Positions 41,913-64,000 of a DNA stretch of 64,000 nucleotides are shown piece by piece. Location of the stretch: the IMG/VR virus record IMGVR_UViG_3300027970_000001, positions 64,001 to 128,000 of that record; one strand, 5' to 3'. Numbering within the stretch: position 1 is the first letter of the stretch; each line of letters opens with the position of its first letter. The position numbers were made by a program, and so were the translations under genes. The notes under the pieces were generated by a model, which saw only the letters and a list, made by a program, of their open reading frames with translations, had not been told where the DNA came from and made no database searches. This stretch comes from a virus.

Positions 41913-42269
41913 TCAGACGGCCGCGAAGATAGCGCCGAGCCCGTCACCGCTGTCGCCGAGGTCGTACCGGACGGTGCCCTCGGTGGTGAATGGGATCTGC
42001 TTGAACGGGTAGTCGTAGTTGCCGATCCCAGGCAGCGTGTCGCGCATCATGCCGATGTTGCGACGCGCGCCGGGAATCGGCGTCCTGACGTAGCCGATGT
42101 GGTGGGTGTAGTTCGCCGGCATCCCGATGTTCATGTCGGGGCCCCAGCCGTAGGGCGAGTAGATCGCCCCCGGCGGGCTCATTCGCCACGAGTACGGATC
42201 AACCGCCTGAGCGAACGCCGTCGTCGATGTGAAAGCGGGCGGTGCGCCCATGCCGCGATGGTAGCTCAT
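41913..42269 (-). CDS. putative virion protein, MSYH..GMG leader
   Basis: Tyr/Pro/Gly-rich; GMG and GLG motifs. Confidence 0.5.
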   Translation of the reverse strand: MSYHRGMGAPPAFTSTTAFAQAVDPYSWRMSPPGAIYSPYGWGPDMNIGMPANYTHHIGYVRTPIPGARRNIGMMRDTLPGIGNYDYPFKQIPFTTEGTVRYDLGDSGDGLGAIFAAV

Positions 42270-42299
42270 GTGGTTGCCTTAGCCGGCGCCGCCAGCGTT

Positions 42300-42704
42300 T
42301 CAGTCGTGAGAAACGAAGTACAGGCCCTCGTTGAGCTGGTCGAAGTAGTAGCCCTTGTCGCCAGTCATCTGACGAAGCTTCGACTCGGCCTTGTGGTGCA
42401 GCCGGTCCCACGCCGCGCTCTCGTTGCCTTCGATCAGGCGTCCCTCGACCGAGAAGGTAGCCTCGCCGCCGCGCGTCTTCACGGAGTCGATGACCTCCGC
42501 GACAATCTTGTCGCGGCCCAGCTTCCGGTAGGACGGGGCTTCCAGCAGCGTGTTGGCCCAGGCAAGGCGCAGCGCCTTCGTCAGGTCCTTCGTCGTGCTG
42601 ATGCGTAGGCGGATGGGCCTGGCAGGGCGACTGCTCTTGCGGCTGGTCCGCTTGGCAGGGGCGCGCTTGCTGGTCTTACGGCTGGTCTTCTTACGGGCGG
42701 CCAT
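42300..42704 (-). CDS. protein with KKTSRK basic leader
   Basis: MAARKKTSRKTSKRAPAKRTSRKSSR; GGAG SD. Confidence 0.65.
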   Translation of the reverse strand: MAARKKTSRKTSKRAPAKRTSRKSSRPARPIRLRISTTKDLTKALRLAWANTLLEAPSYRKLGRDKIVAEVIDSVKTRGGEATFSVEGRLIEGNESAAWDRLHHKAESKLRQMTGDKGYYFDQLNEGLYFVSHD

Positions 42705-42714
42705 CGTCGTCTCC

Positions 42715-61566: not shown

Positions 61567-62658
61567 TCAGCGGCTGCTGCGGCGCTTTGCTCGGCGGCGA
61601 CGGTTGGCTGCGATCTTCTTGGCCTGCTGCTTCTTCCAAAAGAAGTAGCCAGCAGTACCAGCAGCGAGCACGCCCACGCCGATTGCGATGTGGGTCGTGG
61701 TGATGCCGCCGGATGCGGCCGGAGCAGGCGCTGGCGCGACAACAGCAGCCGGGGGCGCCTCGGCGGTTCCGGGGGGAGCAGCGGGAGGGGCCTCCGAGGT
61801 CGCAACGACCTCTGCGGCGACATCGACAACCTGATCGACGGACTCGCCGCCGGAGTTGAAGGCGTCAAGGTCCGCCCGCGGATCTGCCACCTTCTTCGAT
61901 TCGACGTCGACCGCGTTGGCCTTCTGCTCGGCCTGCTTGACGTCGGCGGAAGCGTCGGAGGCGACCTTCTCGGCCTGCTGGGTCTTGGCGTCGACCTGCT
62001 GAACCTCAGCGGCCTTCTTGGCGGCCTCCTCGGCAAGCCGCTTGGCTTCCGCCAACTTGGCGGCAGCTTCGGCTGCGGTCTTGGCAGAAGCAGCCTCGGC
62101 GGCCTTCTTTTCGGCGGCAGCGGCAGCGGCAGCGGCCTCCTTCTTCTTTCGGCTCAACTCGGCGTCCAAGGCCGCGAACCTCGCGAGCGCGGCGGCCCCG
62201 TCTGCACGCTGCTTTTCCACGGCCTTGAGCGCGGCCTTAGCAGCCTCGGCCTTGGCAACGTCGGTGGCGCTGAGCCACGCGAAGTAGAACGCGGGCTTGT
62301 CGAGCGCAACCACGTTCAGGCGGCGAAGCGTATCGGACAGCGACGGGTTGCGGATGAACCCAATGGCCTCTCCGGCGTAGAAGCCACGGAGACGCGCGTC
62401 AAGCTTGTTCCGCTTGTTCAGGTCGTCTCGCACGTCCTGGCTGAACGGGCCAATCCAAGCGCCGCTACGGCCTCGGGCGTATGCCGCAGCAAACGCCTGG
62501 CTGATGAACTTCCCGGGAGCATCCGGGCTGAACTTCATCGCCGTTTCAACAAGCCACTTGACATAGGGGTCCGTGCCAGCCGGAATCGCGGCGGAGGTCG
62601 GCGACAGCTTGACGCCAAGGGTCAGGGGAGCGAGCCCGAGGTTGTGATGGTAGGTCAT
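61567..62658 (-). CDS. Ala/Lys-rich coiled-coil membrane protein (spike- or tape-like candidate)
   Basis: MTYHHNLG leader, long AEA/AKK helix, TM, tail IAANRRRRAKRRSSR. Confidence 0.65.
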   Translation of the reverse strand: MTYHHNLGLAPLTLGVKLSPTSAAIPAGTDPYVKWLVETAMKFSPDAPGKFISQAFAAAYARGRSGAWIGPFSQDVRDDLNKRNKLDARLRGFYAGEAIGFIRNPSLSDTLRRLNVVALDKPAFYFAWLSATDVAKAEAAKAALKAVEKQRADGAAALARFAALDAELSRKKKEAAAAAAAAEKKAAEAASAKTAAEAAAKLAEAKRLAEEAAKKAAEVQQVDAKTQQAEKVASDASADVKQAEQKANAVDVESKKVADPRADLDAFNSGGESVDQVVDVAAEVVATSEAPPAAPPGTAEAPPAAVVAPAPAPAASGGITTTHIAIGVGVLAAGTAGYFFWKKQQAKKIAANRRRRAKRRSSR

Positions 62659-62665
62659 CGTCGAT

Positions 62666-63553
62666 TCACTTCTTGATGGTGGTCGTCTGATGAGCGCTGC
62701 GCAGCGTGGATGCGAGCGTGGCAGAGGGCGCCCGGAACTTCAGCGCGGAAGCCGAGAGCGAGACCTTCGCGGTGGGGCCGGGAGAAGAGATGAGGCTGCC
62801 AAATACGGGGGCTCGCACGGTCACGCCGGCAAGAGCGCCTGCCACCTGCTGCCGGGCCGCAATCTGACGCGGGCTAGGCTGCGTCAGGATGTTGGTGAGC
62901 AGCTCGTCTGAGATGCGGATCTCATCGCCGTTGGCGTTCGGTCCGAAGTTGATGCCGCTTGGCCAGTAGCCGACGTTGGCACCCTGAGCCTTGGCCTCGG
63001 TGTACCAGTTGCCAAGGGCCGTCACCATCGCCGACTCGTCCTTGGTCGAGACGGGCTGGCTGTTGTCCAGATACTTGGACTGAACCAGCTTGTTGTAGAT
63101 GGCGTCGGAGTAGAGGTGGTCGCCCTGAGAGAGGCGCACATACCCGTCCTCGGTGTTCTTACGCCACATCGAGCGCGGCTCGCGCAGCAGGGCGTAAAAC
63201 GCCTTGTTGATGCGAAGGTCCTTCGACTCGTTGGTGTTCGGTCCGAAGTTGAACTCGCCCCTGGCTCCGGGCCAAAGCTCCTTGGCTCGTCCCATCCTGA
63301 CCCAGACCGAGCGCAGGGCGCGCATGAAGGGCCCGTCTTCCTTGAGCTGGCCGTCCACGCGGGGCGCCGTAACGAGCGGAGAAACAGCTTGCAGGCGCTT
63401 CAGGATTGCGAGCATGCCACCGAGCACCGCGTCGTCTCCAACGCGGCCCCAGTCCTGCTCATGCTCGAACTGCTGCATGTAGCTGCCGTTCTCGAACGGG
63501 GGCAGTTCGCCGGAGTTCGTGACGGCGATTTCGCCAAGCCTGCTGTAGCTCAT
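62666..63553 (-). CDS. putative virion protein with internal duplication
   Basis: MSYSRLG leader; FNFGPNTNE..LRINK and INFGPNANG..IRISD repeats. Confidence 0.6.
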   Translation of the reverse strand: MSYSRLGEIAVTNSGELPPFENGSYMQQFEHEQDWGRVGDDAVLGGMLAILKRLQAVSPLVTAPRVDGQLKEDGPFMRALRSVWVRMGRAKELWPGARGEFNFGPNTNESKDLRINKAFYALLREPRSMWRKNTEDGYVRLSQGDHLYSDAIYNKLVQSKYLDNSQPVSTKDESAMVTALGNWYTEAKAQGANVGYWPSGINFGPNANGDEIRISDELLTNILTQPSPRQIAARQQVAGALAGVTVRAPVFGSLISSPGPTAKVSLSASALKFRAPSATLASTLRSAHQTTTIKK

Positions 63554-64000
63554 CGCATCCTCTTGTTCCGACGGCGGTTGGCCACCATCTCAGGGGAAGG
63601 CGCCGCAGCCAGCTTGCGCTTCTGCCGGCGCTTCTTGACCAGGCGCACGGCGACAGCGCCGCCCACGAAGATGAACGTGCCGCCAGCCATCCAGGCCCAG
63701 CGCGGCATGCCGTGGAAGTCGCGCATGAACCAGGAGAGCGGGACTTGCTGCTCGGCCTTCTGGAGCTTCGCCACCGCGGCGTCGATGCCAGCGAGCGCCT
63801 GGTTGATGGCGTCCGAGTTGTTGCTCAGGGCCGACGCCGCGGCCTCGCCGCGCTCGAAGGCGGCGGCGACCGAGCGAAGAAACCCGTCAAGCGACCTCTG
63901 GGCCACCGAGAAGTACATGCAGCGGCGGTACTCGCGCGCGACGCCGATGTTGATCTTGGAGATCTCAGACTGAACGTCGGCCAGAACCTCATCACGAATC
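63550..64000 (-). CDS. membrane protein with Arg tail (5' part outside the window)
   Basis: Frame is open to the right edge; TM WAWMAGGTFIFVGGAVAV; tail MVANRRRNKRMR. Confidence 0.65.
   Translation of the reverse strand, partial: IRDEVLADVQSEISKINIGVAREYRRCMYFSVAQRSLDGFLRSVAAAFERGEAAASALSNNSDAINQALAGIDAAVAKLQKAEQQVPLSWFMRDFHGMPRWAWMAGGTFIFVGGAVAVRLVKKRRQKRKLAAAPSPEMVANRRRNKRMR

What the first reader, a model, noticed from the sequence alone, without database searches (positions are those of the whole stretch)
41913..64000. Structural module of a large tailless, probably membrane-containing bacterial virus
Seen: about 22 kb of co-oriented genes with three beta-rich 228-331 aa proteins, a protamine-like core protein and more than 10 single-pass membrane proteins. 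No terminase, portal, HK97 capsid, tail tube or tape measure is recognisable. Established: internal-membrane jelly-roll viruses of prokaryotes (tectiviruses, corticoviruses, Halopanivirales) have many small TM proteins and genomes of only about 10-35 kb. Inference: this genome is at least 64 kb, with a jumbo-phage-like effector arsenal, and may represent an undescribed large jelly-roll lineage.
Basis: inference. Interest (0 to 1): 0.85.

Follow-up and report, generated by a model that had tools for sequence, protein, structure and literature searches.

The report
Capsid-like genes of large tailless virus
This stretch belongs to a 139-kb uncultured freshwater bacterial virus-like element whose best-conserved, transcribed gene folds like the shell protein of small tailless membrane-lined viruses, and whose complete relatives show no tail, portal or DNA-packaging motor, so it may be a far larger version of that design.

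Summary
About 30 kb of co-oriented minus-strand genes include one very conserved 264-aa protein, a protamine/H1-like 890-aa protein and 10-12 membrane-anchored proteins. No tailed-phage hallmark is detectable.

The window is part of a 139,074-bp metagenomic contig. Relatives of 153-298 kb exist, two with terminal repeats. The 264-aa protein models (pLDDT 76.5) as a single jelly roll. Its best match by two aligners is the SPV1 (Portogloboviridae) capsid protein (Z 8.8), then the capsid proteins of P23-77, HCIV-1 and HHIV-2. The model supports self-association through a heterologous interface (0.81 against control 0.40). The gene is single-copy, has the highest GC3 in the window and is covered by RNA-library contigs from three studies.

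Five terminase, three portal, two HK97-capsid, sheath, baseplate, DJR-capsid, A32, FtsK and VirB4 models find nothing credible in five near-complete relatives.

Caveats: Z 8.8 is borderline and the jelly roll is a common fold. The folds of the 327- and 228-aa neighbours were not obtained, and paralogy was not supported. The region is not purely structural: a ParB/PAPS-reductase/LAGLIDADG cassette and a NUDIX gene sit in it. No virion has been seen.

This scan met the same lineage on five other genomes, and three follow-ups reached the same closest relative.

The parts
49274..50068 (-). 264-aa single jelly-roll protein, the major capsid protein candidate. Single-copy, best conserved, with the highest GC3 in the window (0.92).
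   Evidence: Family of 251+ proteins with no Pfam, PHROG or PDB sequence match. AF2 model pLDDT 76.5. SPV1 capsid protein is the top hit by Foldseek (prob 0.96) and by VIA-align (Z 8.8, rmsd 3.2, 134 aa). Self-association score 0.81 against best control 0.40. RNA-library contigs cover the whole gene.
44598..45581 (-). 327-aa conserved partner: N-terminal coiled coil (~75 aa) plus a beta-type domain. In distant relatives it lies directly next to the jelly-roll gene.
   Evidence: 59-65% identity in four complete relatives. Synteny is kept in distant members. No family at E<=1. Fold not obtained.
43896..44582 (-). 228-aa conserved beta-type protein, third member of the conserved triad.
   Evidence: Core gene with 9 homologs. 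Profile comparison with the jelly-roll family is not significant (E 0.18). Fold not obtained.
50262..50960 (-). 232-aa core protein directly upstream of the jelly-roll gene, with a basic N-terminus (…RRNP) and hydrophobic segments.
   Evidence: Partly covered by RNA-library contigs.
50992..53664 (-). 890-aa protein: H1/protamine-like basic N-terminal ~580 aa, a hydrophobic segment, and five GEYVNQPMSGLG repeats. Candidate link between DNA core and membrane.
   Evidence: Sequence. Core gene at 35% identity. RNA-library contigs cover parts of it.
45674..49166 (-). Inserted accessory cassette: ParB-like nuclease (45674-46327), PAPS-reductase/DUF3440 (46312-47526) and a free-standing triple-LAGLIDADG homing endonuclease (47523-49166).
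   Evidence: PHROG 2159 (3e-67) and 2302 (1e-84), LAGLIDADG_3. Absent between the jelly-roll gene and the 327-aa homolog in distant relatives. Related strains diverge exactly at the jelly-roll stop codon, 49274.
53916..55298 (-). Three small genes: a 105-aa protein with an N-terminal hydrophobic segment, and the 248-aa and 115-aa core proteins.
55325..56536 (-). 403-aa protein with a C-terminal NUDIX hydrolase domain (non-structural).
   Evidence: PF00293 at 2e-14.
56533..63999 (-). Array of about 10 poorly conserved proteins. Most have a C-terminal membrane helix followed by a Phi-x-x-N-RRRR tail.
   Evidence: The motif occurs 9 times in the window against 0.3 expected, and is enriched in all four relatives tested.
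40498..43728 (-). Distal end of the conserved block: 208-aa core protein, 118-aa protein (73% identity to G001) and 337-aa protein.
16118..16441 (-). 107-aa protein made of (K/R)KTSKK repeats (39% K+R). Candidate DNA-condensing protein, outside the flagged stretch.
   Evidence: The [KR][KR]TS[KR][KR] motif occurs 15 times against 0.0 expected.

Best explanation
The stretch is the centre of the virion-building (late) gene block of an uncultured ~139-kb double-stranded DNA virus of freshwater bacteria. The host is possibly in the PVC group. The virus appears to be tailless.

Proposed mechanism:
- The 264-aa single jelly-roll protein assembles side by side into ring-shaped capsomers that form an icosahedral shell.
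- Its hypervariable loops (residues 91-107, about 160, and 215-242) would face outward.
- The conserved neighbours (232, 327 and 228 aa) would be minor, vertex or sub-capsomer proteins.
- The many tail-anchored membrane proteins would populate an internal lipid layer, with their C-terminal poly-arginine tails pointing at the DNA.
- The genome would be condensed by very basic proteins (the 890-aa H1/protamine-like protein and the 107-aa KKTSKK protein), so the shell forms around a nucleoprotein core instead of being filled by a motor, as in Sulfolobus polyhedral virus 1.

Shown: the fold model and its best matches, predicted self-association, conservation, synteny, presence in RNA libraries, non-detection of tailed-phage and packaging hallmarks, and motif enrichment.

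Inferred: that particles exist, that they contain a membrane, how DNA is packed, and the roles of all the neighbouring genes.
For: - Fold: model pLDDT 76.5, pTM 0.76. SPV1 capsid protein is the best hit by two independent aligners: Foldseek E 0.024, prob 0.96; VIA-align Z 8.8, rmsd 3.2, 134 of 178 residues, the only Z>=8 among 48,161 chains.
- Next capsid-type hits: P23-77 VP17 Z 7.1, HCIV-1 Z 6.5, HHIV-2 Z 6.1.
- Atlas: the nearest Pfam-bearing clusters are PM2 P2 and PRD1 P3 capsid proteins, at a weak score of 0.75.
- Self-association: score 0.81 against best control 0.40, at least 65% contact agreement, partner pLDDT at least 64 (a mark reached by 20 of 30 solved homomers and 1 of 23 monomers). 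The interface is heterologous and three copies do not close into a trimer.
- The gene: single-copy in five genomes. It has the highest GC3 in the window (0.92) and is the most conserved core gene (69-76% identity).
- Loop insertions: other family members carry insertions of 125-225 aa at one loop.
- Transcription hint: the whole gene is covered by contigs from three RNA-library studies.
- Hallmarks not detected in five genomes that are at least 90% complete. Terminase models. Portal models: 49, 89, 109. HK97 and gp23 capsid: 47, 110. Sheath: 88. gp25: 112. VirB4: 60.
- PHROG scans: no structural PHROG among the 150 largest G001 proteins in the 25 strongest families shown (down to E about 7e-29), nor among the 49 largest unannotated ones (down to about 5e-15).
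- Synteny of the jelly-roll triad holds down to 25-35% identity, with no head or tail Pfam hits within 10 kb.
- Phage-type genes in relatives: Mu Gam, endonuclease VII, Sipho_Gp157, thymidylate synthase, M23 peptidase. A tRNA-Leu lies in the window.
- Precedent: SPV1 has single jelly-roll VP4 and VP10, an inner membrane and a nucleoprotein core, and no ATPase among its assignable genes (PMC8459092).
Against: - Z 8.8 and Foldseek E about 0.02 are borderline. The tool notes that models without a true match typically reach Z 7-8.
- Non-capsid jelly rolls score nearly as well: nucleoplasmin, a phage tail-fibre domain, Ena pilus subunits and tailed-phage cement proteins, at Z 6-7.7.
- There is no sequence-level link to any capsid family.
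- No second jelly-roll protein has been shown. The 228-aa protein is not a detectable paralog.
- No packaging ATPase of any type was found, so the assembly route rests on analogy alone.
- Many core genes are plasmid- or ICE-like: DUF932, a MoxR/VWA pair, PcfJ, ParB, a tyrosine recombinase and an AEP primase.
- HMM non-detection cannot exclude extremely divergent head genes.
- RNA-library contigs do not prove transcription.
- No particle, proteome or virus-size-fraction evidence exists.
Confidence: 0.55

Rival explanations
1. It is a large non-viral mobile element (a megaplasmid or unusual episome). The jelly-roll protein polymerises into something other than a capsid, such as a pilus or appendage (Ena-like), a surface lattice or a compartment. 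The membrane-protein array would be an export or surface apparatus.
For: - Plasmid/ICE-type core genes: DUF932, MoxR+VWA, PcfJ, ParB, a tyrosine recombinase, AEP primase-PriCT, and polyvalent ART/SNF2 proteins.
- Circular-type assemblies of 140-300 kb.
- Ena pilus subunits and nucleoplasmin score Z 6-7.5 against the model.
- A heterologous self-interface also fits fibres.
- No packaging enzyme of any kind was found.
Against: - No VirB4 and no FtsK-type translocase; the single hit is spurious.
- Phage-type genes (Gam, endonuclease VII, Gp157, thymidylate synthase) and a tRNA.
- The top structural hits are capsid proteins, by two methods.
- Very basic DNA-condensing-type proteins sit inside the same operon.
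- IMG/VR files the relatives as viral, with CheckV completeness of 90-100%.
Confidence: 0.2
2. It is a tailed jumbo phage (Caudoviricetes) whose terminase, portal and HK97 capsid are too divergent for current HMMs. The jelly-roll protein would be an abundant decoration or cement protein, or a fibre-tip protein.
For: - Genome size and replication and anti-defence gene content resemble jumbo phages.
- Atlas clusters of the family are labelled mostly Uroviricota.
- Jelly-roll cement and decoration proteins of tailed phages score Z 5.7-6.5: Pam1, KHP40 and GP4.
- The upstream core genes of 775-824, ~190, ~230 and 469-481 aa mimic the size and order of portal, protease, scaffold and capsid.
Against: - Five terminase, three portal, two capsid, one sheath and one baseplate model give nothing in five genomes even at E<=1. 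Terminase is normally the easiest phage gene to detect.
- The 824-aa protein is mostly ER-rich coiled coil and Pro-rich linker, which is not portal-like.
- The 481-aa protein has an acidic N-terminus and a C-terminal membrane anchor with a basic tail, which is not HK97-like.
- Neither protein has a PHROG, Pfam or PDB hit.
- Core P-loop proteins resolve as an SF2 helicase (ResIII/Helicase_C), a MoxR-type AAA+ ATPase that also matches all 14 control genomes, and an unassigned P-loop NTPase with a Cys cluster (XPD/DinG-like by motif only).
Confidence: 0.15

Closest known systems
Portogloboviridae (Sulfolobus polyhedral virus 1; capsid proteins VP4 and VP10, PDB 6OJ0)
   Same: - Best structural match of the 264-aa protein by two aligners.
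- A single jelly-roll shell protein that forms rings.
- Many small membrane proteins.
- Very basic DNA-binding proteins that could form a nucleoprotein core.
- No recognisable packaging ATPase.
- Circular-type genome (PMC8459092).
   Different: - No sequence similarity.
- Genome 139-298 kb against 20 kb.
- Mesophilic freshwater, bacterial-type genes and MAG bins rather than hyperthermophilic archaea.
- Encodes its own helicases, primase, nucleotide metabolism and anti-defence proteins.
- A second jelly-roll protein (the VP10 equivalent) is not demonstrated.
Sphaerolipoviridae/Halopanivirales and relatives (P23-77 VP16/VP17, HCIV-1, HHIV-2)
   Same: Jelly-roll capsid proteins of internal-membrane viruses are the next-best capsid matches: Z 7.1, 6.5 and 6.1, with 114-128 residues aligned. 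One member, P23-77, infects a bacterium.
   Different: - Those viruses have two distinct vertical jelly-roll capsid proteins next to an FtsK/HerA-type packaging ATPase. No such ATPase is found here.
- No paralogous second capsid protein is shown.
- Their genomes are 16-31 kb (own knowledge).
Tectiviridae/Corticoviridae (PRD1 P3, PM2 P2 double jelly-roll capsids)
   Same: Tailless, internal membrane, many small membrane proteins. The nearest Pfam-bearing Atlas clusters carry P2 and P3 capsid families, at a weak score of 0.75.
   Different: - The family core is about 190 aa, a single jelly roll and not a double one.
- The P2_N, P2_C and NCLDV capsid HMMs and the A32 ATPase are absent.
- The genome is 4-14 times larger.
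Jumbo tailed phages (Caudoviricetes above about 200 kb)
   Same: Genome size, tRNA, nucleotide metabolism, polyvalent anti-defence proteins, homing endonucleases.
   Different: No detectable terminase, portal, HK97 capsid, sheath or baseplate in five relatives.

Membership tests
Portogloboviridae-type virion (SPV1-like) | Capsid protein with a single jelly-roll fold resembling VP4/VP10 | tested here: met
   Model pLDDT 76.5. 6oj0 is the top hit by Foldseek (prob 0.96, E 0.024) and by VIA-align (Z 8.8, rmsd 3.2, 134 aa). The strength is borderline.
Portogloboviridae-type virion (SPV1-like) | Sequence homology to VP4/VP10 | tested here: not met
   Profile searches of PDB sequences return no 6oj0 chain at E<=10.
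Portogloboviridae-type virion (SPV1-like) | Two jelly-roll proteins, one forming hexameric and one forming pentameric capsomers | tested here: inconclusive
   The jelly-roll HMM finds one copy per genome. There is no profile similarity to the 228-aa or any other block protein. The homo-oligomer model passes, with an open, ring-compatible interface.
Portogloboviridae-type virion (SPV1-like) | Internal lipid membrane and a nucleoprotein core | not testable with these tools
   Only compatible gene content is seen: 10-12 membrane-anchored proteins and K/R-rich proteins.
Portogloboviridae-type virion (SPV1-like) | About 20-kb circular genome; hyperthermophilic archaeal host | tested here: not met
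   139,074-bp contig. Lake and freshwater metagenomes. Found in bacterial MAG bins.
Caudoviricetes (tailed phages) | Terminase large subunit | tested here: not met
   PF03237, PF03354, PF17289, PF04466 and PF05876 give 0 of 5 genomes over the cut-off. No terminase PHROG appears in the proteome scans. Extreme divergence cannot be excluded.
Caudoviricetes (tailed phages) | Portal protein | tested here: not met
   PF04860, PF07230 and PF05133 are absent. The 824-aa candidate is coiled-coil and Pro-rich, with no hits.
Caudoviricetes (tailed phages) | HK97-fold major capsid protein | tested here: inconclusive
   PF05065 and PF07068 are absent. The 481-aa candidate has a C-terminal membrane anchor and no hits. 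The folds of the core ORFans were not predicted.
Caudoviricetes (tailed phages) | Tail (sheath, baseplate) | tested here: not met
   PF04984 and PF04965 are absent.
Bacterial double jelly-roll viruses (Tectiviridae, Corticoviridae and the like) | Double jelly-roll capsid protein | tested here: not met
   The family core is about 190 aa with one jelly roll. PF18628, PF25513 and PF04451 are absent.
Bacterial double jelly-roll viruses and Halopanivirales | FtsK/HerA (A32-like) packaging ATPase next to the capsid genes | tested here: not met
   PF04665 is absent. The single PF01580 hit lies in the SNF2 helicase C-terminal coiled coil. No Walker A motif occurs in any protein of the conserved block.
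Conjugative plasmid / ICE | VirB4-type type IV secretion ATPase | tested here: not met
   PF03135 is absent in 5 of 5 genomes.
Conjugative plasmid / ICE | Relaxase | not tested
   No relaxase model was run. None appeared among the top Pfam families of the G001 proteome.

The most novel reading that the evidence does not exclude
A widespread, previously undescribed lineage of bacterial viruses with genomes of 140-300 kb. They would build a tailless, membrane-lined shell from a single jelly-roll protein around protein-condensed DNA, with no packaging motor. That would make them 5-15 times larger than any known tailless prokaryotic virus and the first bacterial counterpart of the portoglobovirus design. 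They may also use a lineage-wide C-terminal Phi-x-x-N-RRRR signal to address membrane proteins to the DNA core.
Probability: 0.45. Interest if true: 0.9.

Novelty: new variant of a known kind. Interest (0 to 1): 0.8.

Why it matters
All known large prokaryotic viruses are tailed and fill HK97-fold heads with a terminase motor. Tailless membrane-containing viruses of bacteria and archaea stop at about 10-35 kb.

A 140-300 kb bacterial virus with a jelly-roll shell and no motor would break that size rule. It would extend an architecture known from one family of hyperthermophilic archaeal viruses to common freshwater bacteria. It would also bear on how large genomes can be encapsidated by condensation instead of pumping, which is the route proposed for giant eukaryotic viruses.

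The family is abundant: 251 or more near-full-length homologs, 91 clusters at 50% identity, and near-identical copies in lake samples over several years. Particles should therefore be obtainable.

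Tried and rejected
- **First fold attempt:** a shallow alignment gave pLDDT 48 and was discarded.
- **Intein in the 547-aa protein:** rejected. It starts directly with a LAGLIDADG motif and is a free-standing endonuclease.
- **phrog_1297 'ATPase' as packaging enzyme:** rejected. It matches all 14 control genomes and is the MoxR-type partner of a VWA protein.
- **FtsK hit in G005:** spurious, in the SNF2 coiled coil.
- **GpA_ATPase hit:** 28 residues at 11 bits, a chance match.
- **228-aa protein as jelly-roll paralog:** a first hint (E 0.007 with 5 sequences) vanished with 13 sequences (E 0.18).
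- **PDB hits of the 186-aa family:** matches to designed Kelch proteins are a repeat artefact.
- **Atlas search for the 481-aa protein:** uninformative.
- **PDB profile searches** for the 481-, 824-, 1121- and 459-aa families found nothing.
- **DNA similarity** to phage and plasmid collections found only the ParB/PAPS-reductase pair.
- **Other dead ends:** no whole genome is held for the window, and the ENA record could not be searched by family.
- **RNA-library contigs:** none were laid over 45.5-49.1 kb (ParB, PAPS reductase, endonuclease). A gap in contigs is not evidence of silence.
- **Literature:** three searches found no description of this lineage.

Full report
**What is there.** The window is 63% GC. 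A codon-model gene call gives 85 genes at 93% coding density, and every gene from 34164 to 63999 lies on the minus strand. An exact-protein look-up places the window on a 139,074-bp metagenomic contig, with near-identical copies in other samples. The window corresponds to about 60.3-124.3 kb of that record, reverse-complemented. The conserved block therefore continues about 10 kb beyond the window's end, into locus L001.

**Family scans of the flagged region.** PHROGs and/or Pfam were run on 23 of the 24 larger genes of 41.9-64 kb; the truncated 63550-63999 gene was not scanned. They identify only four genes:
- a ParB-like nuclease (45674-46327);
- a PAPS-reductase/DUF3440 protein (46312-47526);
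- a LAGLIDADG endonuclease (47523-49166);
- a NUDIX domain (55325-56536).

Everything else has no family. Upstream genes carry GP88, PcfJ, GNAT+ART-PolyVal, hexapeptide, GHKL and SNF2 domains, which is a polyvalent anti-defence repertoire.

- The 890-aa protein is H1/protamine-like over its first ~580 residues. A hydrophobic segment and five GEYVNQPMSGLG repeats follow.
- About 10-12 proteins have a credible membrane segment.

**Relatives and the core genome.** The 264-aa protein finds IMG/VR relatives on contigs of 153-298 kb. Two have direct terminal repeats, and CheckV puts completeness at 90-100%. I fetched four of them whole and compared proteomes; 41 genes are shared. They form three groups.
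- **Replication and plasmid-like block:** an SF2 helicase, an AEP primase with PriCT-2, a P-loop protein with a Cys cluster, a MoxR/VWA pair, DUF932 and a tyrosine recombinase.
- **Second replication block:** includes a UvrD-type helicase.
- **A long co-directional block of ORFans that contains the flagged stretch.** In transcription order it holds an 824-aa ER-rich coiled-coil protein and a 186-aa protein (69% identity, with a Cys-His-Asp pattern DCDD…HTHVF…VLDP). Next come a 481-aa protein (acidic N-terminus, C-terminal anchor) and the membrane-protein array. The block ends with the 890-aa basic protein and the 232-, 264-, 327- and 228-aa proteins.

**The accessory cassette is an insertion.** In distant family members (25-35% identity) the jelly-roll gene directly abuts the 327- and 228-aa homologs. 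The ParB/PAPS-reductase/LAGLIDADG trio is therefore an insertion into a conserved unit. Related strains diverge exactly at the jelly-roll stop codon.

**The 264-aa protein.**
- It has the highest GC3 in the window (0.92) and is the most conserved core gene (69-76% identity).
- It is single-copy in all five genomes.
- Its family has 251 or more members, and 91 clusters at the 50% level, with no Pfam, PHROG or PDB sequence match.
- A shallow alignment gave an unusable model (pLDDT 48). A 52-sequence alignment with members down to 24% identity gave pLDDT 76.5 and pTM 0.76. The model is a beta-sandwich with one long helix; the low-confidence parts are the variable loops 91-107 and 215-242.

**Fold comparison.**
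- Foldseek against the PDB returns almost only jelly-roll capsid proteins, led by the SPV1 capsid protein (E 0.024, prob 0.96).
- The viral predicted-structure library gives two unnamed hits at prob 1.00.
- An aligner independent of Foldseek, run on 48,161 chains, again puts SPV1 first (Z 8.8, rmsd 3.2, 134 of 178 residues). It is the only Z>=8. P23-77 VP17 follows at Z 7.1, HCIV-1 at 6.5 and HHIV-2 at 6.1.
- Nucleoplasmin, a phage tail-fibre domain, Ena pilus subunits and tailed-phage cement proteins also reach Z 6-7.7. The fold is firmly a single jelly roll; the capsid assignment is the best-ranked reading but is not proven.

**Self-association and variable loops.** A three-copy prediction supports self-association: score 0.81 against best control 0.40, at least 65% contact agreement, and partner pLDDT of at least 64. 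The interface is heterologous and does not close into a trimer, as expected for higher-order rings or lattices. Family members carry 125-225-aa insertions at one loop near residue 160. An exposed face that tolerates large insertions fits such a role.

**Occurrence and transcription.** The DNA occurs in many lake and freshwater metagenomes from 2019 to 2024: 13 runs hold at least half of the sampled words, seven of which may be the source samples. Contigs from three RNA-library studies cover the whole 264-aa gene and parts of the 232-, 890- and 327-aa genes. This is suggestive of expression, not proof.

**Hallmark tests.** The following were searched in six frames at E<=1 across five relatives.

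| Class | Pfam models |
|---|---|
| Terminase | PF03237, PF03354, PF17289, PF04466, PF05876 |
| Portal | PF04860, PF07230, PF05133 |
| HK97 and T4 capsid | PF05065, PF07068 |
| Tail sheath, gp25 baseplate | PF04984, PF04965 |
| PM2 P2 and NCLDV capsid | PF18628, PF25513, PF04451 |
| A32 and FtsK ATPases | PF04665, PF01580 |
| VirB4 | PF03135 |

- None gave a credible hit. The two weak hits are artefacts.
- Whole-proteome PHROG and Pfam scans of G001 list replication, nucleotide-metabolism and lysis-type (M23) genes and no head or tail family. The output shows only the 25 strongest families.
- The core ORFans that mimic the sizes of portal, protease, scaffold and capsid have no hit at E<=1, and their sequence features do not fit those roles.

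**Interpretation.** The best-supported reading is a tailless virus whose shell is built from the single jelly-roll protein. The absence of any packaging ATPase, together with extremely basic proteins and tail-anchored membrane proteins ending in Phi-x-x-N-RRRR, matches the SPV1 design. That motif occurs 9 times in the window against 0.3 expected and is enriched in all relatives. In SPV1 a jelly-roll shell and an internal membrane enclose a nucleoprotein coil, and no ATPase is recognisable (PMC8459092).

There are two rivals. One is a non-viral episome whose jelly-roll protein forms another polymer. The other is a tailed jumbo phage with undetectably divergent head genes.

**Host.** The jelly-roll gene appears in MAG bins of Planctomycetota (two), Lentisphaeraceae, Deltaproteobacteria and Acidobacteriota. 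Binning of such contigs is unreliable.

**Earlier scan results and novelty.** This scan had already flagged the same lineage on five other genomes, and three follow-ups reached the same closest relative. I treat that as a lead and not as independent support. Three literature searches found no description of the lineage.

Noticed in passing
window 45674-49166: A ParB-like nuclease, a PAPS-reductase/DUF3440 protein and a triple-LAGLIDADG homing endonuclease form a cassette inserted between the jelly-roll gene and its conserved 327-aa neighbour. G001 also has a cassette here, but distant relatives do not. RNA-library contigs of related strains diverge exactly at 49274 into a hairpin (CCCTTGATTTACAAGGG).
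   Followed up: partly
G003:C1:215741-217280 (IMG/VR relative, 298 kb): The jelly-roll gene is split after residue 14 by about 750 nt. This may be an intron or a mobile insertion in the most conserved gene.
   Followed up: no
proteins P0121 (482 aa), P0126, P0134: These jelly-roll family members carry insertions of 125-225 aa at one loop (about residue 160). The insertion in P0121 is Gly/Thr/Ala-rich and looks like a beta-solenoid.
   Followed up: partly
window 13514-63999, C-termini of 9 proteins (e.g. 58026-58655, 59446-60306, 61069-61494, 61567-62658): The motif Phi-x-x-N-[KR]3 follows a C-terminal membrane helix 9 times against 0.3 expected, and is enriched in all four relatives. [KR][KR]TS[KR][KR] occurs 15 times against 0.0 expected. 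Phi-x-G-[LMF]-G occurs 20 times against 3.6 expected. These may be an addressing or processing signal.
   Followed up: partly
L001:3959-4519 (about 5-6 kb beyond the window's end, same contig): A 186-aa core protein (66-72% identity across relatives) has an invariant DCDD…HTHVF…VLDP pattern, the Cys-His-Asp order of papain/transglutaminase/NlpC-P60-type enzymes. It has no Pfam, PHROG or PDB support. It could be a maturation protease or a wall hydrolase.
   Followed up: partly
window 16118-16441: A 107-aa protein is made almost entirely of (K/R)KTSKK repeats (39% K+R) and is a candidate DNA-condensing protein.
   Followed up: no
window 19308-19389: tRNA-Leu (anticodon TAG) on the minus strand, between the GP88-domain and PcfJ-domain genes.
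   Followed up: no
window 24235-26196 and 36900-39260: Polyvalent-type proteins: GNAT plus two ART-PolyVal modules, and an SNF2 helicase with a ~300-aa unknown N-terminal domain. Together with GHKL (30713-34150), PcfJ and GP88 proteins they form an anti-defence-like arsenal.
   Followed up: partly
L051-L055 (species-genome collection): The jelly-roll gene occurs in MAG bins named Phycisphaeraceae, Planctomycetota (a 106-kb contig), Lentisphaeraceae, Deltaproteobacteria and Acidobacteriota. This is a tentative hint of a PVC host.
   Followed up: no
G001 143189-144226 and homologs (A11): A tyrosine recombinase is a core gene of the lineage (41-53% identity). It suggests dimer resolution of a circular replicon, or integration.
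   Followed up: no
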